From positions 2,550 through 66,549 of the forward strand of contig CAZQUN010000003.1 of NCBI GenBank assembly GCA_964596615.1: DNA of 64,000 bases, written 5' to 3'. This document shows, piece by piece, positions 12,531 through 30,678 of the stretch (position 1 is its first letter; every line of letters starts with the position of its first letter). The notes under the pieces are model-generated. The model did not search any database, was not told the origin of the DNA, and saw only the letters and a program-made list of their open reading frames with translations. A program made the translations under genes and the position numbers. This DNA is from an uncultured Candidatus Saccharibacteria bacterium. Lineage in GTDB: Bacteria; Patescibacteriota; Minisyncoccia; Portnoybacterales; UBA2143.

Positions 12531-13523
12531 TTACTTTTTTAAAAACTCAGCTGCTTTCTCAGGTTCAATTGTAGAAATTTCCATGCCGGCTCCTAATTCA
12601 AAACCAGCCATAATTGATGTCTTGGGCAGAATATTCAAATGCCAGTGATAATGTTCATGTCCCTGGTCGTCCCCCGGCGCAGTGTGGAAATAGAAATTGT
12701 AGGCCGGATCTTTTAATTTGGTATAGATTCTGTTAAGAGCAACTCGAAAAGCATCAGCAAAAAGTTCTTTTTCCTTTTCTGTCATTTTTTCGAAATAGGG
12801 TTGGTGTTTCTTTGGATAAACCCTGACTTCAAATGAAACCTGGGGAGCAAAGGGAGAAAGAACGACAAATTCATCATTCTGATAAATTATTCTTCTTTTA
12901 TCCTTAATATCCCATCCAATCATAGAGCAGTAAACACATTTTTTATGCTTCTGGTAATAATTATCAGCGCCGTCCAGACTACTGCGCAAATCCGGGTCAA
13001 GAACCGGAATAGCAATTAATTGGGAATGAGGGTGAGCAATTGAAGCCCCGGCTTCCTTGCCATGATTATGAAAAATTGAAACGTATTTAATCAGTTCTTT
13101 ATCAATTAAATCTAAATACCTTTTTTGATATAAATCAATAACTAATTTAATTTCTTGGTTTGTCATCTGGGCCATCTGTTTTTTGTGGTCGGATGTAATA
13201 ATGACCTCGTGAAAACCAATTCCATCCATTTTCCTATTCGGTCCTTCTTCTTTTTCATTCAAAGAATCCCCTTTTGAAAGAGCCGGGAAATCATTCGGAA
13301 TGGATAAAACAAACCAGGAACCATCTGGTTTGTTTAATGTTAGAACTGATTTATCCAGAATTTTTGGCTGACAAAAAGGACATTTCTCAGGCGAAACATC
13401 GTCCCTTATTCTTTTCTCTTCGGCAAAGGTTTCCGGCCGTCTCGCCCGGCCAGTGGCAATAACGACCCAGTCATTAGAGACCAGGTCAAGCCGAAGTTCT
13501 GATGGAAATCTATCCTTTATCAT
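12531..13523 (-). CDS. galT: Galactose-1-phosphate uridylyltransferase (HIT superfamily, GalT branch)
   Basis: CPFC zinc motif and HPHSQLIAIP (HxHxQ) motif; 330 aa. Confidence 0.8.
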   Translation of the reverse strand: MIKDRFPSELRLDLVSNDWVVIATGRARRPETFAEEKRIRDDVSPEKCPFCQPKILDKSVLTLNKPDGSWFVLSIPNDFPALSKGDSLNEKEEGPNRKMDGIGFHEVIITSDHKKQMAQMTNQEIKLVIDLYQKRYLDLIDKELIKYVSIFHNHGKEAGASIAHPHSQLIAIPVLDPDLRSSLDGADNYYQKHKKCVYCSMIGWDIKDKRRIIYQNDEFVVLSPFAPQVSFEVRVYPKKHQPYFEKMTEKEKELFADAFRVALNRIYTKLKDPAYNFYFHTAPGDDQGHEHYHWHLNILPKTSIMAGFELGAGMEISTIEPEKAAEFLKK

Positions 13524-14286
13524 ATTTCCCTCTAATTAAATTCCATTTAATCTTAAAAAGTTCTTTAAAAGTATTCAAATATCCTTTTAAATTAACCCGG
13601 CTGTCAGGAGAATTTATCCAATTAACCGGAATTATTCCAATCTTGTATCCTAGTTTCCTGGCTAGAGCCAGGGATTCAATATCAAAACCCCAGCGGTCAA
13701 TTTTAAGTCGGGAAAAAATATCTTCGGTTGCCTTTTGGCTAAAAGCCTTGAATCCGCACTGGGTATCCCAGATTCCCGGTACCGCTACTAATTGAATCAA
13801 AAGGTTTCCTAGATTGCCTAATTGTCTTTTAAGAAATGACTGGGGAACGGCCTGTTTCGCTTCTTTGGCATCTTTTTTATCCCGGGAGCCAATAACAATC
13901 TGATGACCTTCGTTAAAAAGGGGTATCATTTTCTCAAAATGCTCTATGGTTGTCGCATTATCAGCATCCATAAAAAGACGGATTTCTCCTTTAGCCTCCA
14001 GCATCCCCTGTTTAACAACCCAGCCTTTGCCATGATTTTTCTCGTTATCAATCAATCTCAAATTCTTAATTAATTCAGAGAATTTACGGACTATTCCGGA
14101 AGTGTTATCCGGCGAACCATCATTAACAACAACAATCTCATAACTATACTTCTGCTCGCTCAAATACTGGTCAATGTCTAATAGGGTTTTAGTAATTCTT
14201 TTTTCTTCCCGATAAGCCGGGATAACAACAGATAAATATATTTTTTTCATATCTTGTATTATACAATAGTTTCCATTAACATACAA
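13510..14286 (-). CDS. Glycosyltransferase family 2 (polyprenol-phosphate glycosyltransferase-like)
   Basis: LSVVIPAYREEKRI N-terminus and a DxD-type region (MDAD). Confidence 0.8.
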   Translation of the reverse strand: MYVNGNYCIIQDMKKIYLSVVIPAYREEKRITKTLLDIDQYLSEQKYSYEIVVVNDGSPDNTSGIVRKFSELIKNLRLIDNEKNHGKGWVVKQGMLEAKGEIRLFMDADNATTIEHFEKMIPLFNEGHQIVIGSRDKKDAKEAKQAVPQSFLKRQLGNLGNLLIQLVAVPGIWDTQCGFKAFSQKATEDIFSRLKIDRWGFDIESLALARKLGYKIGIIPVNWINSPDSRVNLKGYLNTFKELFKIKWNLIRGKYDKG

Positions 14287-16081: not shown

Positions 16082-16127
16082 ATTATATAGATTCTAAACC
16101 TTATGTCAAGAAAAATTCATCCACATA
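16082..16127 (-). promoter_or_regulatory. Repeat module copy 3: perfect consensus sigma70 promoter (TTGACA-16-TATAAT) overlapping the miaA start codon; degenerate TCATCCACA box
   Basis: Reverse complement of 16082-16109 gives TTGACAtaaggtttagaatctaTATAAT. The miaA ATG (16103-16105) overlaps the -35 hexamer. Confidence 0.5.
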
Positions 16128-17023
16128 ATAGGTTAATTGTTATTCTCGGACCGACTGCTTCGGGCAAGTCATCTTTGGCTGTTAAATTAGCCAAAGAATT
16201 TAATGGTGAAATTATTTCAGCCGATTCAAGACAAATCTACAAGGAAATGGATATTGGTACGGCTAAAATTACCAAAAAAGAAATGGATGGCATTTCCCAT
16301 TATTTAATAGATATTGTTAAACCCAATCAAGGCTTTACTTTAGCCCAATACAAAAGAGAAGCGATAAAGATTATTAAAGATATTCAAAAAAAAGAAAAAC
16401 TTCCCTTTTTGGTTGGCGGCACCGGTTTATACATCCAATCAATTGTTGATAATCTGGAAATTCCTCAAGTTAAACCTGATAAAAAATTAAGAGAAAAACT
16501 GGAAAAGCAAGATACAAATGATTTATTCAGGCAATTAAAAAAACTGGATCCGGAGAGTATTCAATTTATTGACCGGAATAACAAAAGAAGAATTATCCGG
16601 GCCTTAGAAGTCTGTTTTTTGACACAAAAACCGTTTTCAAAGCAAAGAAAAAGAGGCCAACCTATATTTGATGTTTTACAGATCGGCATTAATGTTGAAA
16701 AAAATGAATTAGAAAAGAGAACAGAGAAAAGAACAGAAGAAATGATAAAGGAAGGTCTGGTTGAAGAAGTTAAAAAACTTCTTGAAAAATACAACCCTGA
16801 CCTCCCTTGTTTTAGCGGAATCGGCTATCAAGAGATAATTCCCTATCTTAAAGGAGAAATATCTCTTGATAAAGCCAAGGAGCTCATTGCCCGACATACC
16901 CGCCAGTATGCTAAAAAGCAAATGGTTTGGTTTAAGCGGGATAAGCGCATTCATTGGGTAAAGAGTTATCCCCAAGTAAAGAAATCAACCGAAAAATTCT
17001 TGTCTGGCGAGACGCTCTGCTGA
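16103..17023 (+). CDS. miaA: tRNA dimethylallyltransferase (tRNA isopentenyltransferase)
   Basis: P-loop LIVILGPTASGKSSLAV, IISADSRQIYKEMDIGTAK, LVGGTGLYIQS, RQYAKKQMVWFKR. No SD upstream of the ATG. Confidence 0.85.
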   Translation: MSRKIHPHNRLIVILGPTASGKSSLAVKLAKEFNGEIISADSRQIYKEMDIGTAKITKKEMDGISHYLIDIVKPNQGFTLAQYKREAIKIIKDIQKKEKLPFLVGGTGLYIQSIVDNLEIPQVKPDKKLREKLEKQDTNDLFRQLKKLDPESIQFIDRNNKRRIIRALEVCFLTQKPFSKQRKRGQPIFDVLQIGINVEKNELEKRTEKRTEEMIKEGLVEEVKKLLEKYNPDLPCFSGIGYQEIIPYLKGEISLDKAKELIARHTRQYAKKQMVWFKRDKRIHWVKSYPQVKKSTEKFLSGETLC

Positions 17024-17404
17024 AATAATTACTTTTTCGATGTCTGCCAACGAAGAAGATTCCAATTCACACTTTTTAGCCCTGAATGGTAAAATTGTCT
17101 CCAGGATATCCTCGATACAATAATATCTTCTGTCAACAGGATAACCGAGTTTCCGGTGTGAACAGAAGACGCATGACTTTATAGATGGTTTTTGAGGAGC
17201 AAAACACTCCAATCCGCCCTTGTTTAAAGCGAGACGCTTTACAGCACATTTTTCTCTGTTTAAGCACCATTCTTTCAAAAGAACCATACATAACCGGTGA
17301 AGTTGTACACCCTGTGCAATTTTCTCTATTCGCCTTTGGTCTGGCCAAGAACCCATTGGCTTGCCTTTTTCTAGGTCTAATATAATGTCGTGCGATTTTG
17401 GCAT
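16985..17404 (-). CDS. Hypothetical Cys-rich protein (139 aa)
   Basis: SD AAGGAGG on the minus strand. Seven Cys residues in CxnC clusters. Overlaps the miaA 3' end by 39 nt. No family recognised. Confidence 0.45.
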   Translation of the reverse strand: MPKSHDIILDLEKGKPMGSWPDQRRIEKIAQGVQLHRLCMVLLKEWCLNREKCAVKRLALNKGGLECFAPQKPSIKSCVFCSHRKLGYPVDRRYYCIEDILETILPFRAKKCELESSSLADIEKVIISAERLARQEFFG

Positions 17405-17505: not shown

Positions 17506-18972
17506 CTATTCTACCGCTTTCAAAAGTTCTGTCAAGATTTCCCGGGCAATTTCCGGATTAGCCTGACCTTTGCTTTTAGCCATAACTTTTCCAACCAGAA
17601 ATTGAAGAGCGTTTTCTCTACCCGACTTATAATCCTCAACTGATTTTTGGTTTTCCTTAATAACTTCTTTGGCTATCTTCCCTATCGTATCTTTATCACT
17701 GACTTGTTTTAATTCCTTTGATTCAACAATATGGGATGGGTCAGCTCCGGTCTGACACATTTCTTTCAGAGTTGTCTGGGCAGCTGAACTTGAAATTTCT
17801 TTTTTCTCAATCATGGAAATGAATTCAGCAAAGTTCTCCGGACTAATATGGCAATCTTCAATTCTTGTTTTGCTCTCTGAAAGAAGCTTCTGAAGTTCGG
17901 TTAAAAGATAATTAGCCGTTAATTTAATTAATTTGTCCTTATCCTCAATTCCCTTTATCTTTAACCAGGTTTCTAATTCTGAAACAATTTGTTCGAAATA
18001 GTCTGAAAGGCCTTTATTTGAAATTAAAACTTGGATATCTTTTTGAGGTAATTTGTATTGATTTAAAAACCTTTCTCTCTTTTGGCTGGGCATTTCAGGA
18101 ATTTCTTTTGAGATTTTCCCGCTTATTGTATTCAAATCAGTCAAAGGAGGTAAATCCGGTTCGGGGAAATATCGGTAATCCTGGGATTCTTCCTTTATTC
18201 TCTGGGAAAATGTTCTTTGCTTGTTTTCATCCCAACCCCGGGTTTCCTGAATAATTTTGTCGTTGGAATCTAACAAATCGGTCTGTCTTTTAATTTCGTA
18301 ATCAATTGCTCTTTTAACCGAACGGAAAGAATTAAGATTTTTAATTTCAACCTTTGTTCCCAATTCCTTTTTTTCTGATTTAAGAGAGATATTGACTTCG
18401 CATCGCATCTGACCTTTTTCCATATTAGCTTCAGAAACATCCAGATAGCGGAGAATCAACTGTAATTCTTCACAAAATTGCTTAGCTTCATCCCCAGTTT
18501 CAATATCCGGTTCGGTGACTAATTCCATTAAAGGCACTCCGGCCCGGTTAAAATCAACTAATGAATATTCTGTTTTTTCAGGATGAATTAGTTTACCAGT
18601 ATCTTCCTCCAAATGAACCCGGGTGATTCTAATCTTCTTGCCATTTATTTCCAGAAATCCCTTATTAGACAAAGGCAAATCATATTGGGAAATCTGGTAG
18701 CCCTTGGGCAGGTCGGGGTAGAAGTAGTTTTTGCGGTCAAACTTGGCTGAATCAGGAATTGAACAATTCAAAGCCAGAGCAGTTTTAATCACCGATTCAA
18801 TTGCTTTCTTATTAATTACAGGCAAACTTCCCGGTTGAGCAGTACAAATCGGGCAAATATGGACATTGGCCTGATTAACATCCGGATCATTAAGACAATC
18901 GCAGAACATTTTGCTCTCTGTTTTTAATTCAGCGTGGATTTCCAGTCCAATAACTGGCTGATATTTAGACAT
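17506..18972 (-). CDS. gatB: Asp-tRNA(Asn)/Glu-tRNA(Gln) amidotransferase subunit B
   Basis: MSKYQPVIGLEIHAELKTESKMFCDC N-terminus; full GatB/GatE catalytic plus YqeY tail. Confidence 0.9.
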   Translation of the reverse strand: MSKYQPVIGLEIHAELKTESKMFCDCLNDPDVNQANVHICPICTAQPGSLPVINKKAIESVIKTALALNCSIPDSAKFDRKNYFYPDLPKGYQISQYDLPLSNKGFLEINGKKIRITRVHLEEDTGKLIHPEKTEYSLVDFNRAGVPLMELVTEPDIETGDEAKQFCEELQLILRYLDVSEANMEKGQMRCEVNISLKSEKKELGTKVEIKNLNSFRSVKRAIDYEIKRQTDLLDSNDKIIQETRGWDENKQRTFSQRIKEESQDYRYFPEPDLPPLTDLNTISGKISKEIPEMPSQKRERFLNQYKLPQKDIQVLISNKGLSDYFEQIVSELETWLKIKGIEDKDKLIKLTANYLLTELQKLLSESKTRIEDCHISPENFAEFISMIEKKEISSSAAQTTLKEMCQTGADPSHIVESKELKQVSDKDTIGKIAKEVIKENQKSVEDYKSGRENALQFLVGKVMAKSKGQANPEIAREILTELLKAVE

Positions 18973-19041
18973 ATATTCAACTTAATCTTATCTGATTTTT
19001 TGGGAAAAATAAAGGGTCTATTTGAGTAATTATCACCAATG

Positions 19042-19069
19042 TTGACATAAGGCACTAAATGATTATTAT
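19042..19069 (+). promoter_or_regulatory. Sigma70-like promoter (TTGACA-16-TATTAT) upstream of the thyA-like operon
   Basis: TTGACAtaaggcactaaatgatTATTAT. The same TTGACATAAGG core occurs in repeat module copy 3. Confidence 0.4.
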
Positions 19070-19120
19070 TTAGATAAATAATAAGCTGTTCATTAACTCT
19101 TTATAACGGAGGTATACCCT

Positions 19121-20038
19121 ATGATTCGATACAAAGAATTTTCAGAAAGGAGACCTGATACACAGTATCGAGATCTTCTGAGGCACATTAGAAGCAAAGG
19201 AGTAAGAGTCTACAGCCAGCAAGAAGAAGACGCCTTGATGGTTCTTGGTTATCAAATGCGTTTTGACCTTGAAAATGGATTCCCCATTATTACCGAACGT
19301 GATCTTGTCAGCTCGGAAAAAGAAAGGCCTTCTCAGTTTCAATTGGCTCTCGGAGAAGTCTGTGCTTTTTTAAATGGAGCCAGAACGCTGGAAGAAATGA
19401 AAAAGTTCGGCTGTGGGTGGTGGTCACGCTGGGTGACCGAAAAAAAATGCGCTAAACGAGGACTCAAGCCAGGTGATCTTGGTCCAGGATCTTATGGTCC
19501 AGCTTGGCGAAGTTTTCCTACCAGCGAAGGAAAGCCATTTGATCAGATTACACATCTGATTGAACAGATTAATGAAATTCCTCATCTTCGGACTCATATT
19601 GTCAATCCTTGGATCCCTCAGTACCTCGGTCGTGGCAAGGGAAAGCAACAAAAAGTGGTTGTTGTTCCCTGTCATGGTTGGTTCCATGTCTCCGTAAACA
19701 CCCATACTGAAGAACTTTCGCTCCATCATTTCCAACGGAGTGCTGACGTACCAGTTGGCCTTGTTTTTAATTTCATTCAGTATGCGGCACTGACAATGAT
19801 GATAGCCCAAATTACCAGCTACAAACCAAAAGAGCTTGTCTATACAACTTCTGACACTCACATCTTCTTGAGTCAGATGAAAGATGTAAACGAAGTCCTC
19901 CAAACTGAACCACAGCCATTCCCGACCGTAACAGTGAATCCAGACATCAAAGATATCTTTGCCTTCAGACCGAAAGATTTTGAGGTAACTGACTACTACC
20001 CTCAACTTCCAAGGAGGACAATATGGACACCTGTGTAA
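19121..20038 (+). CDS. thyA: Thymidylate synthase (ThyA) family protein, divergent
   Basis: Aligns by eye to ThyA: YQMRFDL, GWWSRW, LGPGSYGPAWR, DQITHLIEQI, PCHGWFHV (catalytic Cys), FQRSADVPVGLVFNF (Arg-Ser-x-Asp, Asn as in dUMP-specific enzymes), SDTHIF. The N-terminal DRTGTGT-type and SRR regions are changed. GC is higher than the neighbouring genes. Confidence 0.75.
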   Translation: MIRYKEFSERRPDTQYRDLLRHIRSKGVRVYSQQEEDALMVLGYQMRFDLENGFPIITERDLVSSEKERPSQFQLALGEVCAFLNGARTLEEMKKFGCGWWSRWVTEKKCAKRGLKPGDLGPGSYGPAWRSFPTSEGKPFDQITHLIEQINEIPHLRTHIVNPWIPQYLGRGKGKQQKVVVVPCHGWFHVSVNTHTEELSLHHFQRSADVPVGLVFNFIQYAALTMMIAQITSYKPKELVYTTSDTHIFLSQMKDVNEVLQTEPQPFPTVTVNPDIKDIFAFRPKDFEVTDYYPQLPRRTIWTPV

Positions 20039-20481
20039 AGAGCTTCGTTAACATCAAGAATGCCAGAGTTAAAGAACAACGCCAAGTAATGGAGATGATC
20101 GAAAAAGGAAGGTATTGTCCTTTCTGTCCCGAACATTACTCCGAAGCCAAGCTCAGGCCAGTTATCAGACAGGGTAAATATTGGCATATCAGAGAGAATC
20201 GATGGCCATACAAAAATACTCGACTCCATCTTATTCTAATCCATAATTCTCACGTAGAAAGACTTTCCGAAATTACCCCGGAAGCCGCCAAAGAACTCTT
20301 TAGTCTTCTTGAGTGGATTGAAGATGAATATCAGATATTAAGCGGAGCTATTGGTTTGCGGTTTGGCGACATCCACAAAAATGGCGCGACAGTTCTTCAT
20401 ATCCACACACATATCGTTGTAGCAGATTTGATTGATCGCGATAATCCAAATTATTTACCCGTTCGATTCAGAATGGGATAA
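20023..20481 (+). CDS. HIT-superfamily protein, GalT-branch-like (CPFC zinc motif plus HIHTHIV histidine triad)
   Basis: 152 aa; CPFCPEH and LHIHTHIVV. Overlaps the thyA-like stop by 16 nt (translational coupling), or starts at the internal MEM. Confidence 0.65.
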   Translation: MDTCVKSFVNIKNARVKEQRQVMEMIEKGRYCPFCPEHYSEAKLRPVIRQGKYWHIRENRWPYKNTRLHLILIHNSHVERLSEITPEAAKELFSLLEWIEDEYQILSGAIGLRFGDIHKNGATVLHIHTHIVVADLIDRDNPNYLPVRFRMG

Positions 20482-20487
20482 ACAAAC

Positions 20488-20541
20488 GAAAAGGCCCCAC
20501 CTTTAATCAATTAAAGATTAAAGAGTGGGGCTATTTATTTT
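20488..20541. terminator. Bidirectional hairpin between convergent HIT gene and dCMP deaminase gene
   Basis: GGCCCCAC ...24-nt AT loop... GTGGGGC with flanking A/T runs. Confidence 0.4.
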
Positions 20542-21371
20542 ACCAAAATAATTTCTATCTTCTTATCCCGGAGAATTCTTTCTCCATCAAGCATTGCGTA
20601 TCCCGAATTAAAATAACATCTTTTAATTCCGGAGTAAGCGATAAGCTTGGCGCAAGGAGGACAAGGGAAAGTTGTAATGAAAAGATCCGTTCCCCCAAGC
20701 GCTATTCCTCTTCTAGCCGCTTCGCTAATAAGATGAGCTTCCGCATGTTGGTCAGTAGTCAATTCAATATGTATTCCACGACTAAAGAAAGAACGAGCAT
20801 CGCCTTCGAAATAGGGTGTATGAGAAGAGGGTACCTGACGATTGTATCCAACCAAAATAACTTGGCCGTCCCGGACAATAAGAGCACCGGTTTGACGCCA
20901 CTGATTCGTTGCCCTAATACTTTCTTTGATGGCCTGGTCCATCATCTCTTTTTCCATACCGTCGGTTGAAATAATGCGGTCATAGTTTACTTTACTAACG
21001 GCAAGCGATTTTGTCTTATCCCACCGAAGAAAAATACTATTATCAAATTCCACAGAACAACCCTTTAAATATTCCCTTGCTACAGCGTGACACTCATCCT
21101 CGTCTGGCATAATGATTGTAAGACCAGTTGACCGAATATTTTCAAGGTTTTCAATGTTTGCGATACGGATAGAATCAAAGCCACCCCAACCTTTAATAGC
21201 TTGTTTAGCTTGTCCGGGCGACAAAGCACGGATATCCTTTATCAAAGGGCGAAATGAATTTATCAGTTCCTGGCCAAAAAGATAGATTATTTTTACTTCT
21301 GGATACTTCTTAAAAAACTTCCAATAGCCTTGATGAAGTACGGGGATATAGGCTAAAATAATTTTTTTCAT
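20535..21371 (-). CDS. dCMP deaminase (CMP/dCMP deaminase zinc-binding domain) fused to an uncharacterised ~130-aa N-terminal domain
   Basis: C-terminal HAEAHLI...FPCPPCAKLI deaminase motifs (H-A-E and PCxxC). The N-terminal half has no recognisable motif. Confidence 0.8.
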   Translation of the reverse strand: MKKIILAYIPVLHQGYWKFFKKYPEVKIIYLFGQELINSFRPLIKDIRALSPGQAKQAIKGWGGFDSIRIANIENLENIRSTGLTIIMPDEDECHAVAREYLKGCSVEFDNSIFLRWDKTKSLAVSKVNYDRIISTDGMEKEMMDQAIKESIRATNQWRQTGALIVRDGQVILVGYNRQVPSSHTPYFEGDARSFFSRGIHIELTTDQHAEAHLISEAARRGIALGGTDLFITTFPCPPCAKLIAYSGIKRCYFNSGYAMLDGERILRDKKIEIILVK

Positions 21372-21976
21372 GAGCTACCTCCCGTTACATCATCCAGGTA
21401 TTTACAAACCTCTTCAACTGTTTCTCTTAGACGATTTTTTATCTCATCTGACGGCTTAACCAGGATAAGTCTAACTTTCGCCGTTGTCGAGGTAGTTGCC
21501 TGTGATTCAAGAAGTTCAATCGTCCCGCAATATTGTTTAAGACCGACCAAATCTTTTTCTTTGTACATTCTTCTGGTAACAATTAGAACATCGGGACGAA
21601 CGGTTTTAATAAGTTGCCACTTTGTATCTTTGGCCTTTTTTAAAAAAACCAGGTCCACATGACGACAATGGCAGACAATTTCCATTCTTTCGTCTTGGTC
21701 GACAATCGGCCGATTGGGCCCCTTTTTTTGTCTTACTTTTTCATCGCTGTCAACACCAACAACTAGCACATCACCTTGATCTTTGGCTTTTTCAAGATAG
21801 CGACTATGACCGATATGAAATAGGTCAAAAGTTCCCGAAGTCAAAACTATCTTTAAGCCCAATTTTTTACAAGAATCAATCCTTTCCATTAATTGCTCAT
21901 AACTTTGGGCAATTCTTTCTTCGATGTTTGAACCGGGCCCAAAAATATCATGTGTCTTATCACCCATAATATTCAC
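21368..21976 (-). CDS. Cytidylyltransferase-like nucleotidyltransferase (HldE domain II / TagD-like, HxGH motif)
   Basis: KIVLTSGTFDLFHIGHSRYLEKAKDQGDVLVVGVDSD closely matches the RfaE/HldE adenylyltransferase domain. 4-nt overlap with the upstream deaminase gene. Confidence 0.7.
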   Translation of the reverse strand: MNIMGDKTHDIFGPGSNIEERIAQSYEQLMERIDSCKKLGLKIVLTSGTFDLFHIGHSRYLEKAKDQGDVLVVGVDSDEKVRQKKGPNRPIVDQDERMEIVCHCRHVDLVFLKKAKDTKWQLIKTVRPDVLIVTRRMYKEKDLVGLKQYCGTIELLESQATTSTTAKVRLILVKPSDEIKNRLRETVEEVCKYLDDVTGGSS

Positions 21977-22178
21977 CTCCTATATTTTTGATTATAAACC
22001 CAAAAGGACAGATGTCTCTGCCCTCCTCATTTAACACTTGGTTCTTTCGGTATTTGACCAACCTTACAGCCCCTGCCAGAAACCCTTTTGACAAACCATT
22101 TCCAGGGATTCTTCCAAAATTTTATCTTCTTCTCTTTTTTCTTCACCTGACACCTCCATATATTTTTAAAGTCCTATC

Positions 22179-22601
22179 CTACTTAACCTCAATCCCCATT
22201 GACCTTGCTGTCCCTTCGACAATTTTCTGGGCCTGCTCTAAATTATAGGCATTAAGGTCAACCATTTTCTTCTGGGCAATTTCCTTGATTTGTTCTTTAG
22301 TCACTTTTCCAACATTGGTCTTATTCGGTTCGCCGGAACCTTTTTGCAATCCGGCCGCTTTTTTAAGTAAATCAGAAGCTGGCGGAGTTTTCAACTTAAA
22401 ATCAAAAGTTCGGTCCTCGTAAACCGTAATTTCAACAGGAATAATATCGCCCTGTTTATCCTTTGTCGCTTCATTAAAACGAGTACAGAAATCCTGGATA
22501 TTTAATCCATGCTGTCCTAAGGCTGGACCAACCGGCGGAGCCGGATTAGCCTGTCCGGCCTGAATCTGTAGTTTAATAATTGTCAGTACTTTTTTAGCCA
22601 T
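22179..22601 (-). CDS. rplK: 50S ribosomal protein L11
   Basis: [35 protein letters not shown]. Confidence 0.9.
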
Positions 22602-28753: not shown

Positions 28754-28824
28754 TGCGCGGTAGAGAAGTAGTATCTCGTGAGGCCCATAACCTCAAGACC
28801 CGGGTGCAACTCCCGGCCGCGCAA
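28754..28824 (+). tRNA. tRNA-like element with CAU anticodon (non-canonical D- and T-loops; possible degenerate or initiator-like tRNA-Met)
   Basis: Folds as acceptor TGCGCGG/CCGCGCA (7 bp), U8, D-stem GAGA/TCTC, anticodon stem TGAGG/CCTCA with loop CCCATAA, T-stem CCGGG/CCCGG. Has A11:U24 but lacks G18G19. T-loop is TGCAACT. No CCA. Confidence 0.35.
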
Positions 28825-28831
28825 CTCGGAT

Positions 28832-29608
28832 ATGTTATTAAGAAGATGGACCAAAGAAGAAGAGAAAAAACTTAAACACCTCTACTTAAGAACAAAAACA
28901 CCCGTAGAGGAGATTTGTCGAATTATAGACAGATCGCCACCAGCAATTCAGAATAGATTAAAAATATTAGGATTCAAGAAACGTCGGTTTCCTATCATAG
29001 CCAGACATCCAGACAAAGTTACTCCTGCCTTAGCAAGGATTCATGCTCATATATGTGGAGATGGCTGTATGTATACCCTTAGAGAGAAAGACTCTTATGG
29101 CCCATGGGCTAAATATCGAAAAAGGGCCTATAGAACTAAGTATAATACATGTTATACTAATACCAACCCAAAGCTCCTTAAAGAATTCCGGCAAGACATA
29201 CAGGAAGTTTTTGGGATTAAAGGCAAAAAACTAAGAGATTTTGATATAAGGTTAAATTCTAAAAGAATTTGGCGATTACTTAAAGAGATGGGCGCAGGAA
29301 ATTCTCATGAATGGTCTATCCCGAAATCTATCACCCAAGGATCGTCTAATGTGAAAAAGAGTTGGATTAGGGCGTTTTTTGATGACGAGGCGTATTTCAA
29401 TGACCGAGGCAGAATCAGAGTAAAGTGCGTGAATAAAAAAGGGCTCCAGCAAATTACTAAGATATTAAATGAGTTTATTCCATGTAATCTTTTGCCGAAA
29501 AAAGGTTCGTATTGGGGAAATACTTTTTGTATAAGTATAAATAAAAAGGATGCTCCTAAATATTTCTCTAAAATAGGTTCACTTCGTTATAGTATAATGA
29601 AAAAATAA
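28832..29608 (+). CDS. Free-standing LAGLIDADG homing endonuclease (double-motif, with N-terminal HTH)
   Basis: Two LAGLIDADG-type motifs about 108 aa apart (ARIHAHICGDGCMY and IRAFFDDEAYF). N-terminal HTH-like WTKEEEKKLKHLYLRTKTPVEEICRII. The listed ORF start (28778) overlaps the tRNA-like element; MLLRRW (28832) is more likely. Confidence 0.7.
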   Translation: MLLRRWTKEEEKKLKHLYLRTKTPVEEICRIIDRSPPAIQNRLKILGFKKRRFPIIARHPDKVTPALARIHAHICGDGCMYTLREKDSYGPWAKYRKRAYRTKYNTCYTNTNPKLLKEFRQDIQEVFGIKGKKLRDFDIRLNSKRIWRLLKEMGAGNSHEWSIPKSITQGSSNVKKSWIRAFFDDEAYFNDRGRIRVKCVNKKGLQQITKILNEFIPCNLLPKKGSYWGNTFCISINKKDAPKYFSKIGSLRYSIMKK

Positions 29609-29612
29609 TCAT

Positions 29613-29686
29613 GGCGGCGTAGCTCAACTGGTTAGAGCGGGAGACTCATAAGCTCCAGGTTACAGGTTCAAGTCCTGTCGCCGCTA
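29613..29686 (+). tRNA. tRNA-Met or tRNA-Ile2 (anticodon CAU)
   Basis: Cloverleaf GGCGGCG-TA-GCTC-AACTGGTTA-GAGC... with anticodon loop CTCATAA and T-arm ACAGG-TTCAAGT-CCTGT. Resembles both E. coli elongator Met and ileX. No CCA. Confidence 0.85.
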
Positions 29687-29701
29687 CTAAAATTAAATAA
29701 T

Positions 29702-29775
29702 GGGGGCGTAGCTTAGTGGTTTAAAGCGTCTGCCTGTCACGCAGAAGATCGAGGGTTCGAATCCCTTCGTCCCCG
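29702..29775 (+). tRNA. tRNA-Asp (anticodon GUC)
   Basis: GGGGGCG acceptor, anticodon stem TCTGC/GCAGA with loop CTGTCAC, T-arm GAGGG-TTCGAAT-CCCTT, discriminator G. Confidence 0.9.
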
Positions 29776-29787
29776 CAGTTAGAAAAT

Positions 29788-29844: not shown

Positions 29845-30678
29845 ATGCCAATAAAAGTAAATAACAAAATTATTGCCATATATGGACCAACGATTTCCAA
29901 GAAAACTGGTCTGGCCGTTGATATTGCTAAATATGTTTGGGGAAAATATAATATTGAACCCGAGCTTATTTCAGCTGATTCAAGAAAAATCTACAAAGAT
30001 TTAACTATCGGACAAGTTCCTATTTGGGCACCTTATGATGGAAAAATTAAAGTCCATATGTTCAAATTTATTGATTCTTTGGAGGAATCTTTTAGTCTTT
30101 ACGGTTACAAGACTAAAACAGAAGAAATAATTGACCAGATTCATAGAAAGAATCATTTACCGATACTTTTCGGCGGAAGCGCTGTATATATTTCATCTAT
30201 ACTTGAAAATTGGAATGTGCCTGAAGATTACAATTCCGGCACGAATCACAAAAATAAGTTTGGCAAATCAAAACCCAAATATGAATATATTATCCTGATA
30301 CCAAAAACTAGAAAAACAATTCTTTTTAAAAAGATCAAAGAACATGTTGAAGAAAATTTTAGAGCTGGAATTTTAGAAGAATTAAAAAGATTAGTTAAAA
30401 AATATCAAATTAATCCGCTATCTCCTCCGACAGATAATATGTTATATAAATCCCTAGAATACAGAGAGTTTTTAGAATATTGTTTCAGAAATAAGAAAAA
30501 ACTAGAAGAATTAGACAAGAAAGATTTGAGGATAATAAAAATAAGTTCGGTCAGTAATCTAAAGAATTTTGCCAGAAGACAACTAAGATGGATTCCTAAG
30601 ATGGAGGGTAAAAAATACTTAGTTGAAAATTACCAAGAAGGAAGAGAAATTGTTGATGAATTCTTAAATCGAGATTAA
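29845..30678 (+). CDS. Isopentenyltransferase (IPT/MiaA) family paralog with degenerate P-loop
   Basis: IIAIYGPTISKKTGLAVDIA (Walker A second Gly replaced by Lys), ISADSRKIYKDLTIGQ, LFGGSAVYISSILENWNVP, RRQLRWIPK. Collinear with MiaA motifs but strongly diverged; 277 aa. Confidence 0.65.
   Translation: MPIKVNNKIIAIYGPTISKKTGLAVDIAKYVWGKYNIEPELISADSRKIYKDLTIGQVPIWAPYDGKIKVHMFKFIDSLEESFSLYGYKTKTEEIIDQIHRKNHLPILFGGSAVYISSILENWNVPEDYNSGTNHKNKFGKSKPKYEYIILIPKTRKTILFKKIKEHVEENFRAGILEELKRLVKKYQINPLSPPTDNMLYKSLEYREFLEYCFRNKKKLEELDKKDLRIIKISSVSNLKNFARRQLRWIPKMEGKKYLVENYQEGREIVDEFLNRD

What the first reader, a model, noticed from the sequence alone, without database searches (positions are those of the whole stretch)
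19042..21976. Higher-GC operon of a divergent ThyA-family enzyme and a GalT-branch HIT protein, convergent with a dCMP-deaminase fusion and an HldE-like nucleotidyltransferase
The 305-aa protein keeps the ThyA catalytic Cys (PCH), the Arg-Ser-x-Asp phosphate site, and the Asn that specifies uracil. Its N-terminal DRTGTGT-type segment is rewritten. Only one Arg remains where ThyA has the SRR pair. The Tyr of the DxHIY motif is Phe. That is the kind of divergence seen in dUMP/dCMP hydroxymethylases and other ThyA-like nucleotide-modifying enzymes. It is translationally coupled to a small HIT protein (CPFC plus HIHTHIV) of the nucleotidyl-transferase/hydrolase type. It has its own TTGACATAAGG promoter. 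It is visibly GC-richer than its neighbours. Across a shared terminator lie a dCMP deaminase with an unknown ~130-aa N-terminal domain and a cytidylyl/adenylyl-transferase. Two readings are possible. One is a compact pyrimidine deoxynucleotide module (dCMP to dUMP to dTMP) with odd accessory enzymes. The other is a horizontally acquired nucleotide hypermodification pathway.
Basis: partly seen in the sequence, partly recalled or inferred. Interest (0 to 1): 0.65.

Follow-up and report, generated by a model that had tools for sequence, protein, structure and literature searches.

The report
Conserved Patescibacterial thymidylate-synthesis gene cluster
This is the usual thymidine-nucleotide (dTMP) synthesis gene cluster of ultra-small Patescibacteria (CPR), not a foreign DNA-modification pathway, but it always carries three proteins of unknown role, and this genome has deleted the dihydrofolate-reductase part.

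Summary
The four genes, their motifs, the 16-nt overlap, the promoter and the shared terminator hairpin are all present as described. The interpretation needs correcting.

- **ThyA.** The 305-aa protein belongs to a large, vertically inherited thymidylate-synthase clade found in 432 species genomes. All catalytic and folate-site residues are kept. Two of the four phosphate-binding arginines are replaced across the clade (R21→Q, R127'→T).
- **Synteny.** 55 of 59 Patescibacterial loci have the same arrangement: thyA–HIT convergent with NTase–dCMP deaminase. folA lies within 6 kb in 50 of them and is fused to the HIT gene in 11. glyA, dut, tmk and folD are frequent neighbours. This supports the "compact dCMP→dUMP→dTMP module" reading and argues against horizontal transfer or hypermodification.
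- **Composition.** GC and GC3 match the core genes of the window.
- **HIT.** The protein is Fhit/Hint-like, not GalT-branch.
- **Deaminase N-domain.** It is a Rossmann-like domain with no known relatives, found almost only on this deaminase.
- **New here.** The closest relative carries a DHFR–HIT fusion. In this window the DHFR domain has been deleted in frame, and no folA, glyA or folD lies within the 64 kb.

The roles of HIT, the NTase and the N-domain remain open. Overall interest is moderate.

The parts
19042..19069 (+). Sigma-70-like promoter of the thyA-HIT operon (TTGACA, 16 nt, TATTAT)
   Evidence: Matches 11 of 12 consensus positions and is the best site in the 18800-22300 scan. The sequence was read. 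A consensus match only; function not shown.
19121..20038 (+). thyA: folate-dependent thymidylate synthase of the Patescibacteria-type clade (305 aa). R21→Q and R127'→T are replaced; Y209→F.
   Evidence: PF00303 E 3e-63. TIGR03284 scores 176 bits against a cut-off of 108. PDB ThyAs match at E 1e-45. Active-site columns were checked. 432 species genomes carry relatives.
20023..20481 (+). Small Fhit/Hint-like HIT protein (152 aa). It overlaps thyA by 16 nt. It is the remnant of a DHFR-HIT fusion whose DHFR domain was deleted in frame.
   Evidence: PF01230 scores 30.9 bits. The model has pLDDT 86.5. Foldseek matches Hint, Fhit and Rv2613c, and the profile matches Fhit best. The fusion in L081 and the deletion are shown.
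20493..20532 (.). Hairpin between the convergent operons; a likely bidirectional intrinsic terminator
   Evidence: Free energy -24.8 kcal/mol, z = -6.8, with none of 200 shuffles as stable. T-rich tracts follow it on both strands.
20535..20969 (-). dCMP deaminase domain (about residues 135-278) of the 278-aa fusion protein
   Evidence: PF00383 E 4e-16. HAE and PCxxC are invariant. Foldseek top hits are the dCMP deaminases of S-TIM5, T4, S. mutans and human and of phages.
20988..21371 (-). N-terminal domain (residues 1-128) of the deaminase protein. A five-stranded Rossmann-like domain of unknown function, with invariant P10-V11-x-H13-x-G15-Y16, K45, P89 and F114-L115-R116-W117.
   Evidence: The model is confident, with pLDDT mostly above 90. 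There is no Pfam hit and no PDB sequence hit. Among 1.84 billion representative proteins it has 403 relatives. Most of the 150 listed are about 275-300 aa, the length of the deaminase fusion, and the rest are mainly shorter sequences.
21368..21976 (-). HIGH-motif nucleotidyltransferase (CTP_transf_like; 202 aa from the GTG start, 199 aa from the ATG). It is the first gene of the NTase-deaminase operon and overlaps the deaminase start by 4 nt.
   Evidence: PF01467 E 5e-21. TIGR02199 scores 114 bits, below its cut-off of 181.5. PDB matches are ECT, HldC and TagD. It is adjacent to the deaminase in 53 loci and fused to it in P0345.
21991..22018 (-). Promoter-like site upstream of the NTase-deaminase operon (GAGACA, 16 nt, TATAAT)
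   Evidence: Matches 10 of 12. A consensus match only.

Best explanation
The locus is the thymidylate (dTMP) synthesis module that Patescibacteria inherit vertically.

**Steps with known chemistry.** The deaminase domain converts dCMP to dUMP. The ThyA-type enzyme methylates dUMP to dTMP with methylene-tetrahydrofolate and releases dihydrofolate. ThyA is a genuine thymidylate synthase of a clade in which two of the four phosphate-binding arginines have been replaced (inferred, probability about 0.85). The two arginines replaced are reported to tolerate substitution, so the likely cost is a higher Km for dUMP rather than a new reaction.

**Accessory parts.** In relatives, DHFR follows thyA, often fused to the HIT protein, and recycles dihydrofolate. 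In this genome the DHFR domain has been cleanly deleted from that fusion, leaving the HIT domain. DHFR must therefore be encoded elsewhere, replaced, or supplied through reduced folates from a host.

Three parts belong to the same functional unit: the Fhit/Hint-like HIT protein, the HIGH-motif nucleotidyltransferase, and the new N-terminal domain of the deaminase. This rests on conserved linkage and on two kinds of gene fusion.

**Suggested role (weak inference, about 0.2).** They may handle a nucleotide conjugate or polyphosphate that feeds or regulates the supply of pyrimidine deoxynucleoside monophosphates. The transferase would make an NMP-linked compound from a (d)NTP. The HIT enzyme would release a (d)NMP. 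The N-domain would bind a nucleotide as sensor or partner.
For: **ThyA**
- It passes the thymidylate-synthase equivalog cut-off (TIGR03284, 176 bits against 108).
- C146, H147, E58, W80, W83, Y94, R166, S167, D169, N177 and H207 are invariant in 120 relatives. R126 is kept in 119 of them.
- The Q21 and T127 replacements hold in 58 and 59 of 59 module loci.
- A natural ThyA lacking Arg127' (the VAAP clade of Vibrionales, Alteromonadales, Aeromonadales and Pasteurellales) has a higher Km. R179' mutants, including Thr, also have a higher Km (PMC6005164).

**Linkage**
- 55 of 59 Patescibacterial loci have ThyA, HIT, N-domain deaminase and NTase together.
- folA is fused to HIT in 11 loci, lies immediately before HIT in 11, and lies elsewhere in the locus in 28.
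- Frequent neighbours are glyA (29 loci), dut (21), tmk (14), folD (8) and a dNMP kinase (7).
- CPR folA genes complement E. coli ΔfolA (PMC11974145).

**Vertical inheritance**
- Synteny with L081 is identical.
- GC and GC3 are ordinary.
- dN/dS is 0.044 for ThyA, against 0.058 for RplK.

**DHFR deletion**
- L081 has a 318-aa protein with DHFR_1 (179 bits) plus HIT.
- The alignment shows MDPGL[~165 aa DHFR]SFVNL in L081 against MDTCVKSFVNI in the window.
- No folA, glyA, folD, dut or tmk lies in the 64 kb.

**Functional unit**
- DHFR-HIT fusions.
- A 469-aa NTase + N-domain + deaminase fusion.
Against: - No activity has been measured for any of the four proteins.
- The DRTGTGT loop of ThyA is entirely rewritten and two phosphate ligands are missing, so a shifted substrate cannot be excluded from sequence alone.
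- In this genome the DHFR partner is missing from the locus, which is unusual for an organism that uses ThyA.
- For HIT and the NTase, the link to dTMP synthesis rests on gene order and fusions only. The NTase resembles enzymes of envelope and lipid precursor synthesis (ECT, TagD, HldC), and the cluster also sits next to rplK-nusG in 32 loci, so part of the linkage could be inherited gene order.
- thyA and the deaminase gene rank 5th and 2nd of 41 in synonymous-codon deviation.
- Among the 21 related loci without the module, only 6 show folA nearby.
Confidence: 0.8

Rival explanations
1. A carrier-linked pathway. The transferase attaches (d)CMP to a phosphorylated carrier, giving a dCDP-X type compound. 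The N-domain deaminase and the arginine-depleted ThyA then act on the conjugate, whose α-phosphate is a diester that needs fewer arginines. The HIT enzyme finally releases dTMP or dUMP.
For: - The two lost arginines are phosphate ligands, and the loss is fixed in all module loci.
- An NTase that makes NMP-phospho-X and a Fhit-like HIT that cleaves NMP-phospho-X are both invariably present.
- The fusions follow this order: NTase with the deaminase, and HIT with DHFR next to ThyA.
- The deaminase carries an extra conserved domain with His/Lys/Arg/Asp invariants.
Against: - Related ThyAs outside Patescibacteria also lack Arg127 (H, T or Y), and most lack Arg21, yet they have no HIT, NTase or N-domain deaminase nearby. 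The arginine loss is therefore not tied to the accessory genes.
- R166, S167 and R126 are still present.
- dut, tmk and a dNMP kinase sit in the same clusters, which fits free dUMP and dTMP.
- There is no precedent and no direct evidence.
Confidence: 0.07
2. thyA and the deaminase form the dTMP module. HIT and the NTase are unrelated housekeeping genes, for example a general nucleotide phosphoramidase and an envelope-precursor cytidylyl- or adenylyl-transferase, kept nearby only by inherited gene order in small, rearrangement-poor genomes.
For: - The NTase's best characterised relatives are ECT, HldC and TagD.
- The module is also linked to rplK-nusG in 32 loci, which shows that gene order is generally conserved here.
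- HIT proteins are ubiquitous housekeeping enzymes.
Against: - The linkage survives down to 53% ThyA identity, while folA, glyA, dut and tmk shuffle around it.
- HIT overlaps the thyA stop codon, and the NTase overlaps the deaminase start codon.
- There are independent fusions: DHFR-HIT in 11 loci plus L081, and NTase-deaminase in P0345.
- Extra HIT paralogues are inserted inside the same cluster in several lineages.
Confidence: 0.12
3. A horizontally acquired nucleotide hypermodification pathway, with a ThyA-like hydroxymethylase or other pyrimidine-modifying enzyme plus transferases, as in phages.
For: - The nucleotide-binding loop of ThyA is divergent.
- thyA has a slightly higher GC than its immediate neighbours gatB and miaA.
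- A nucleotidyltransferase and a deaminase are present, as in some phage modification clusters.
Against: - The locus and its flanks are identical in a relative that has diverged to saturated synonymous sites.
- The module is present in 59 of the 80 related loci examined, all annotated as CPR/Patescibacteria or unclassified MAGs.
- GC3 z-scores are +0.9 and +1.1.
- The best phage ThyA is 36% identical and the HIT protein has no phage match.
- Asn177 is kept.
- folA, glyA, folD, dut and tmk are linked in relatives.
Confidence: 0.02

Closest known systems
Folate-dependent thymidylate synthase ThyA (E. coli, L. casei; EC 2.1.1.45)
   Same: Full-length homology (PF00303, TIGR03284). The catalytic Cys-His, Asn177, R166-S-x-D, E58, W80, W83, Y94 and H207 are all present. 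The gene is linked to folA in relatives.
   Different: The DRTGTGT loop is rewritten (R21→Q) and R127'→T, so only two of the four phosphate arginines remain. There are two short insertions, at about residues 62-75 and 106-118. Y209→F in this gene. No DHFR gene lies in this locus.
VAAP-clade thymidylate synthase of Vibrio parahaemolyticus (PMC6005164)
   Same: A natural ThyA lacking Arg127' (Gly there), with higher Km for dUMP and methylene-THF. It was presented as the first natural case of a substituted phosphate arginine.
   Different: The present clade has lost two arginines (R21 and R127'), is phylogenetically unrelated (Patescibacteria and some other MAG lineages), and is untested biochemically.
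Bifunctional DHFR-TS of protozoa, and thyA-folA operons
   Same: DHFR is physically coupled to the thymidylate cycle by fusion or operon.
   Different: Here DHFR is fused in relatives to a HIT-fold nucleotide hydrolase or transferase, not to TS. I found no description of this architecture in the literature searched. In this window the DHFR half is deleted.
Fhit / Hint branch of the HIT superfamily
   Same: Single HIT domain, HxHxHxx motif, an N-terminal CxxC. The best profile hit is Fhit (E 3e-5) and the best fold hits are Hint, Fhit and the Rv2613c Ap4A phosphorylase.
   Different: Only 13-25% identity over the top fold matches. An extra N-terminal helix. The third His is Gln in some relatives. 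Substrate unknown. Obligate linkage to thyA and folA.
dCMP deaminases (B. subtilis ComEB, T4 Cd, S-TIM5, human DCTD)
   Same: HAE and FPCxxCAK-x-I-xx-GIK motifs, and a fold match at E 4e-10.
   Different: It carries a 128-aa N-terminal Rossmann-like domain with no detectable relatives and a lineage-specific insert (residues about 180-205). It is always preceded by a HIGH-motif nucleotidyltransferase gene.
T4 dCMP hydroxymethylase (gp42) and phage dUMP hydroxymethylases
   Same: ThyA fold and a catalytic Cys.
   Different: dCMP hydroxymethylase has Asp in place of Asn177, per my recollection of the published family; no hydroxymethylase sequence was aligned here. These enzymes do not oxidise folate and so need no DHFR. 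The present family keeps Asn177 and is linked to folA, glyA and folD.

Membership tests
Thymidylate synthase ThyA (EC 2.1.1.45) | Score above the curated family thresholds (Pfam PF00303; NCBIfam equivalog TIGR03284) | tested here: met
   PF00303 scores 213.9 bits against 24.3. TIGR03284 scores 176.4 against 108.35. The narrower PRK01827 sub-models are below their cut-offs.
Thymidylate synthase ThyA (EC 2.1.1.45) | Catalytic Cys146-His147, Asn177 (uracil), Glu58, Tyr94, Trp80/Trp83, Asp169, His207 | tested here: met
   All are present in the window protein and invariant in 120 relatives and in 80 loci.
Thymidylate synthase ThyA (EC 2.1.1.45) | Four-arginine dUMP-phosphate site (R21, R126', R127', R166) | tested here: not met
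   R126 and R166 are kept. R21→Q and R127→T. Loss of Arg127' is tolerated in a natural TS and in mutants (PMC6005164).
Thymidylate synthase ThyA (EC 2.1.1.45) | Coupling to dihydrofolate reductase, because the reaction oxidises the folate | tested here: inconclusive
   folA lies within 6 kb in 50 of 59 related module loci and is fused to the next gene in 11. It is absent from this 64-kb window. The rest of the genome was not available.
Thymidylate synthase ThyA (EC 2.1.1.45) | dUMP + CH2-THF → dTMP + DHF activity, or complementation of a thyA mutant | not testable with these tools
   Needs an experiment.
dCMP/dUMP hydroxymethylases (ThyA-like modifying enzymes) | Asp replacing Asn177 (dCMP enzymes), and no requirement for DHFR | tested here: not met
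   Asn is invariant. folA, glyA and folD are linked to the family. A dUMP hydroxymethylase cannot be excluded by residues alone.
HIT superfamily | HIT fold and HxHxHxx nucleotide-binding motif | tested here: met
   PF01230 scores 30.9 bits against 21.5. H126 and H128 are invariant, and position 130 is His in the window and most relatives but Gln in two. The fold matches Hint and Fhit with probability 1.00.
GalT branch of the HIT superfamily | Two tandem HIT-like half-domains (about 330-350 aa), PF01087/PF02744, HxHxQ motif | tested here: not met
   The protein has a single 152-aa domain with no PF01087 hit. Its nearest relatives are Fhit and Hint. A true GalT-type gene is elsewhere in the window, at 12534-13523.
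dCMP deaminase (ComEB / DCTD type) | HAE and PCxxC zinc motifs on a cytidine-deaminase fold, closest to dCMP deaminases | tested here: met
   H209, E211, C237 and C240 are invariant. Foldseek top hits are dCMP deaminases at E 4e-10. The ComEB equivalog model is below its cut-off (49 against 219 bits).
HldE domain II (heptose 1-phosphate adenylyltransferase) | Score above the TIGR02199 equivalog-domain cut-off | tested here: not met
   114.1 bits against 181.5. Only the generic cyt_tran_rel domain model passes, at 65.4 against 27.7. The HxGH motif (H53-I-G-H56) and the TTSTT motif are present.

The most novel reading that the evidence does not exclude
The Fhit-like HIT protein (often fused to DHFR), the HIGH-motif nucleotidyltransferase and the orphan N-terminal domain of the dCMP deaminase may together form an undescribed, Patescibacteria-specific component of thymidylate synthesis. 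It could be a new route that delivers dCMP or dUMP through a nucleotide conjugate, or a new nucleotide-sensing control of the deaminase and TS. This would make dTTP supply in these minimal symbionts mechanistically different from the textbook pathway. A sub-case is that this lineage runs ThyA without any DHFR.
Probability: 0.2. Interest if true: 0.65.

Novelty: new variant of a known kind. Interest (0 to 1): 0.4.

Why it matters
Patescibacteria are a large share of bacterial diversity, have minimal genomes, and depend on hosts for most precursors. They nonetheless keep a dedicated dTMP module. Three points follow from this locus.

- **Unassigned core genes.** Three proteins or domains of unknown role are locked to that module by operon structure and gene fusions. 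This marks concrete targets for assigning function to conserved unknowns in CPR genomes. It may also reveal how these organisms obtain or regulate dUMP.
- **Tolerance of the active site.** A ThyA clade has lost two of its four phosphate arginines. This extends the single known natural case and shows which parts of a classical drug target can vary.
- **Folate dependence.** The in-frame loss of the DHFR domain here bears on the proposed folate exchange between CPR bacteria and their hosts.

The thyA gene itself is ordinary for its lineage.

Tried and rejected
- **Horizontal transfer by composition.** GC, GC3 and codon chi-square were computed for 41-65 ORFs. There is no outlier signal. The modest codon deviation of thyA fits the + strand genes, and that of the deaminase rests on three codons.
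- **Phage origin.** tblastn against 50,697 phage records gave at most 36% identity for ThyA and nothing for HIT.
- **folA elsewhere in the window.** The only hit was a 42-aa match at E 0.003 inside a LAGLIDADG-like ORF, which is spurious.
- **HIT as a replacement for dUTPase or thymidylate kinase.** Rejected, because dut and tmk are themselves frequent neighbours of the module.
- **"MDT" start as proof of the deletion.** The shared MDT start of HIT-only and DHFR-HIT proteins is forced by overlap with the conserved ThyA C-terminus (IWTPV). The deletion was therefore argued from the alignment with L081 instead.
- **Literature.** Searches for a HIT-DHFR fusion or for this gene neighbourhood found nothing specific.

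Full report
**1. What is there**

The region holds two convergent two-gene operons.

- The + strand has a 305-aa ThyA homologue (19121-20038) and a 152-aa HIT protein (20023-20481).
- The two genes overlap by 16 nt, and a GGAGG lies inside the end of thyA.
- A near-consensus promoter (TTGACA, 16 nt, TATTAT; 19042-19069) and a GGAGG precede thyA.
- The − strand has a HIGH-motif nucleotidyltransferase (21368-21976) and a 278-aa protein (20535-21371). Their coding regions overlap by 4 nt. A promoter-like site lies at 22018-21991.
- In the 278-aa protein, residues 141-254 form a dCMP-deaminase domain.
- Between the operons, a hairpin at 20493-20532 folds at -24.8 kcal/mol (z = -6.8) and is flanked by T-runs in both directions.

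**2. The ThyA-like protein**

It scores above the thymidylate-synthase equivalog cut-off (TIGR03284, 176 bits against 108) and aligns end to end with solved ThyAs (E 1e-45).

The following are invariant: Cys146, His147, Glu58, Trp80, Trp83, Tyr94, Arg166, Ser167, Asp169, Asn177 and His207. Arg126 is kept in 119 of 120. Arg21 is Gln in 108 and Arg127 is Thr in 118. Tyr209 is Tyr in 83 and Phe in 37.

The replaced arginines are thus a fixed trait of a large clade, not a peculiarity of this gene. A scan of species-representative genomes found 432 genomes with relatives, mostly Patescibacteria. In the 59 loci that carry the full module, position 21 is Gln in 58 and position 127 is Thr in 59. In the 21 loci without the module, Arg127 is also absent (H, T or Y) and Arg21 is mostly absent. 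These loci include Armatimonadota and the 'ANGP1' lineage, plus a few contigs that end just after thyA.

A natural ThyA lacking Arg127' has been characterised in Vibrio, where it has a higher Km. The same paper cites mutants of the equivalent L. casei Arg179', including Thr, as having higher Km (PMC6005164).

ThyA is under purifying selection as strong as ribosomal protein L11. Against the closest relative, dN/dS is 0.044 for ThyA and 0.058 for L11, although synonymous sites are saturated.

**3. Context across genomes**

- 59 loci carry at least part of the module. 55 of these have all of ThyA, HIT, N-domain deaminase and NTase, in the same convergent arrangement.
- folA is fused to HIT in 11 loci, lies immediately before HIT in 11, lies elsewhere within 6 kb in 28, and is not seen in 9.
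- Clustering all neighbouring ORFs showed further recurrent neighbours: serine hydroxymethyltransferase (29 loci), dUTPase (21), thymidylate kinase (14), FolD (8), a DNMK-type dNMP kinase (7), and NusG with L11 (32).

This is a thymidylate and folate-cycle supercluster. Coupling to DHFR, SHMT and FolD is what a synthase that oxidises its folate needs, and a hydroxymethylase does not need it. CPR folA genes have been shown to complement E. coli ΔfolA, and folA, glyA and folD were detected in 55%, 81% and 80% of 4,581 CPR genomes (PMC11974145).

**4. No sign of horizontal transfer**

- thyA has GC 0.439 (z = +1.6) and GC3 0.387 (z = +0.9). This matches EF-Tu (0.449), EF-G (0.437) and ribosomal-protein genes in the same window. 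The excess lies in codon positions 1 and 2, which reflects amino-acid composition. The other three genes are within 1 sd.
- Synonymous-codon deviation ranks thyA 5th and the deaminase 2nd of 41 genes. thyA resembles the other + strand genes, and the deaminase signal comes from three codons.
- The closest relative (L081; ThyA 86% identical) has the same flanks on both sides: miaB-like, miaA, gatB | module | rplK, nusG, secE, gyrB, pheT, pheS.
- Phage ThyAs are at most 36% identical, and HIT has no phage match.

**5. The HIT protein**

The model is confident (pLDDT 86.5). It matches single-domain Hint proteins, Fhit and the mycobacterial Ap4A phosphorylase Rv2613c. A family profile hits Fhit best (E 3e-5). 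It is therefore not a GalT-branch protein. A real two-domain GalT-type gene lies elsewhere in the window, at 12534-13523.

His126 and His128 are invariant. The third His is Gln in some relatives. Several lineages have extra HIT paralogues inside the same cluster.

**6. A deletion in this genome**

In L081 the gene after thyA encodes a 318-aa DHFR-HIT fusion (DHFR_1 179 bits, HIT 38 bits). Alignment shows that the window lacks about 165 codons, exactly the DHFR domain. L081 reads MDPGL[NISII…ERKPE]SFVNL and the window reads MDTCVKSFVNI.

Neither folA nor glyA, folD, dut or tmk occurs anywhere in the 64 kb. In relatives L001-L006, glyA-folD sits directly upstream of thyA. In the window and L081, gatB occupies that position. 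Whether DHFR is encoded elsewhere in the genome could not be checked.

**7. The deaminase protein and the transferase**

The C-terminal domain has the HAE and FPCxxCAK-x-I-xx-GIK signatures. It matches dCMP deaminases best (S-TIM5, T4, S. mutans, human; E 4e-10).

Residues 1-128 form a confidently modelled five-stranded β/α domain. Its invariant residues are P10-V11-x-H13-x-G15-Y16 after the first strand, then K45, P89 and F114-L115-R116-W117. It has no Pfam or PDB sequence relative.

Among 1.84 billion representative proteins it has only 403 relatives. Most of the 150 listed are about 275-300 aa, the length of the deaminase fusion, and the rest are mainly shorter sequences. One 469-aa protein is a triple fusion of NTase, N-domain and deaminase.

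The order of secondary-structure elements, the size and the His-x-Gly-aromatic motif recall the 129-aa glycerol-3-phosphate cytidylyltransferase fold. The only profile-profile alignment to the NTase family covers that motif and is not significant. This is a lead, not a finding.

The NTase has HxGH and TTSTT motifs. It is nearest to ECT, HldC and TagD but is below the HldE domain II cut-off.

**8. Interpretation**

*Shown by computation.* The gene models and motifs, family membership of ThyA, the deaminase and HIT, conservation of the module, the fusions, the in-frame DHFR deletion, and ordinary composition.

*Inferred.* ThyA is an active thymidylate synthase (about 0.85). HIT, the NTase and the N-domain work with it.

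*Speculative.* What those three do. My best guess is that they make and cleave an NMP-linked compound, or sense a nucleotide, in the supply or control of dCMP and dUMP.

A more radical carrier-linked pathway would also explain the lost arginines. It is weakened by the same losses occurring in relatives that lack the accessory genes.

**9. Verdict**

The central gene is ordinary for its lineage, and the "foreign hypermodification pathway" reading fails. Three things remain of interest: a conserved, uncharacterised trio attached to thymidylate synthesis in Patescibacteria; a ThyA clade with only two phosphate arginines; and a lineage that has excised DHFR from the operon. Interest is 0.4. Novelty: a new variant of a known kind.

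Noticed in passing
window 12534-13523 (-), with 13513-14286 (-): A genuine two-domain GalT-branch HIT protein (330 aa; PF01087, PF02744, HIT and Ap4A_phos_N hits) lies next to a family-2 glycosyltransferase. It is a different gene from the 152-aa HIT in the finding.
   Followed up: partly
window 28754-29776 (+): A LAGLIDADG-like ORF (28778-29608; PF14528 20.9 bits, just under the cut-off) has the most deviant codon usage in the window. It sits between two tRNA-Met(CAT) genes (28754-28825 and 29613-29687), and its start overlaps the first one. tRNA-Asp follows. It may be a homing-endonuclease insertion that duplicated or split a tRNA gene.
   Followed up: no
window 29845-30675 (+) and 16103-17023 (+): There are two IPP-transferase (miaA-like) genes. 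The second (277 aa) has the lowest GC of all ORFs in the window (0.30, z = -3.0) and matches only part of the Pfam model.
   Followed up: no
window 16985-17404 (-): A 139-aa ORF between miaA and gatB has no Pfam hit. It is called as a gene in the Logan contig L082, but no gene is called at the equivalent position in the closest relative L081.
   Followed up: no
L015-L039 (loci from Armatimonadota, 'ANGP1' and other unclassified MAGs), about 100-900 nt upstream of thyA: In 17 of the 21 related loci without the module, a Nudix hydrolase gene sits directly upstream of thyA on the opposite strand. By my reading of its motif it resembles NudL/CoA pyrophosphatase.
   Followed up: no
P0345 (469 aa; metagenomic protein): A single polypeptide combines the HIGH-motif nucleotidyltransferase, the orphan N-domain and the dCMP deaminase. 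This fusion ties the transferase to the deaminase.
   Followed up: partly
L037, L041, L043-L047, L049-L051, L053, L055-L058, L062, L063, L069, L071, L072, L078 (between HIT and the deaminase gene): Additional HIT-like paralogues (175-363 aa; CxxC plus HLH-x-H/N/Q) are inserted inside the same cluster in many Paceibacteria-type genomes. Most fall below Pfam HIT thresholds.
   Followed up: partly
L056, L058, L065, L067, L071, L072 (next to the NTase gene): A P-loop protein matching the deoxynucleotide monophosphate kinase family (PF21448, 31 bits against a cut-off of 27) flanks the module.
   Followed up: partly
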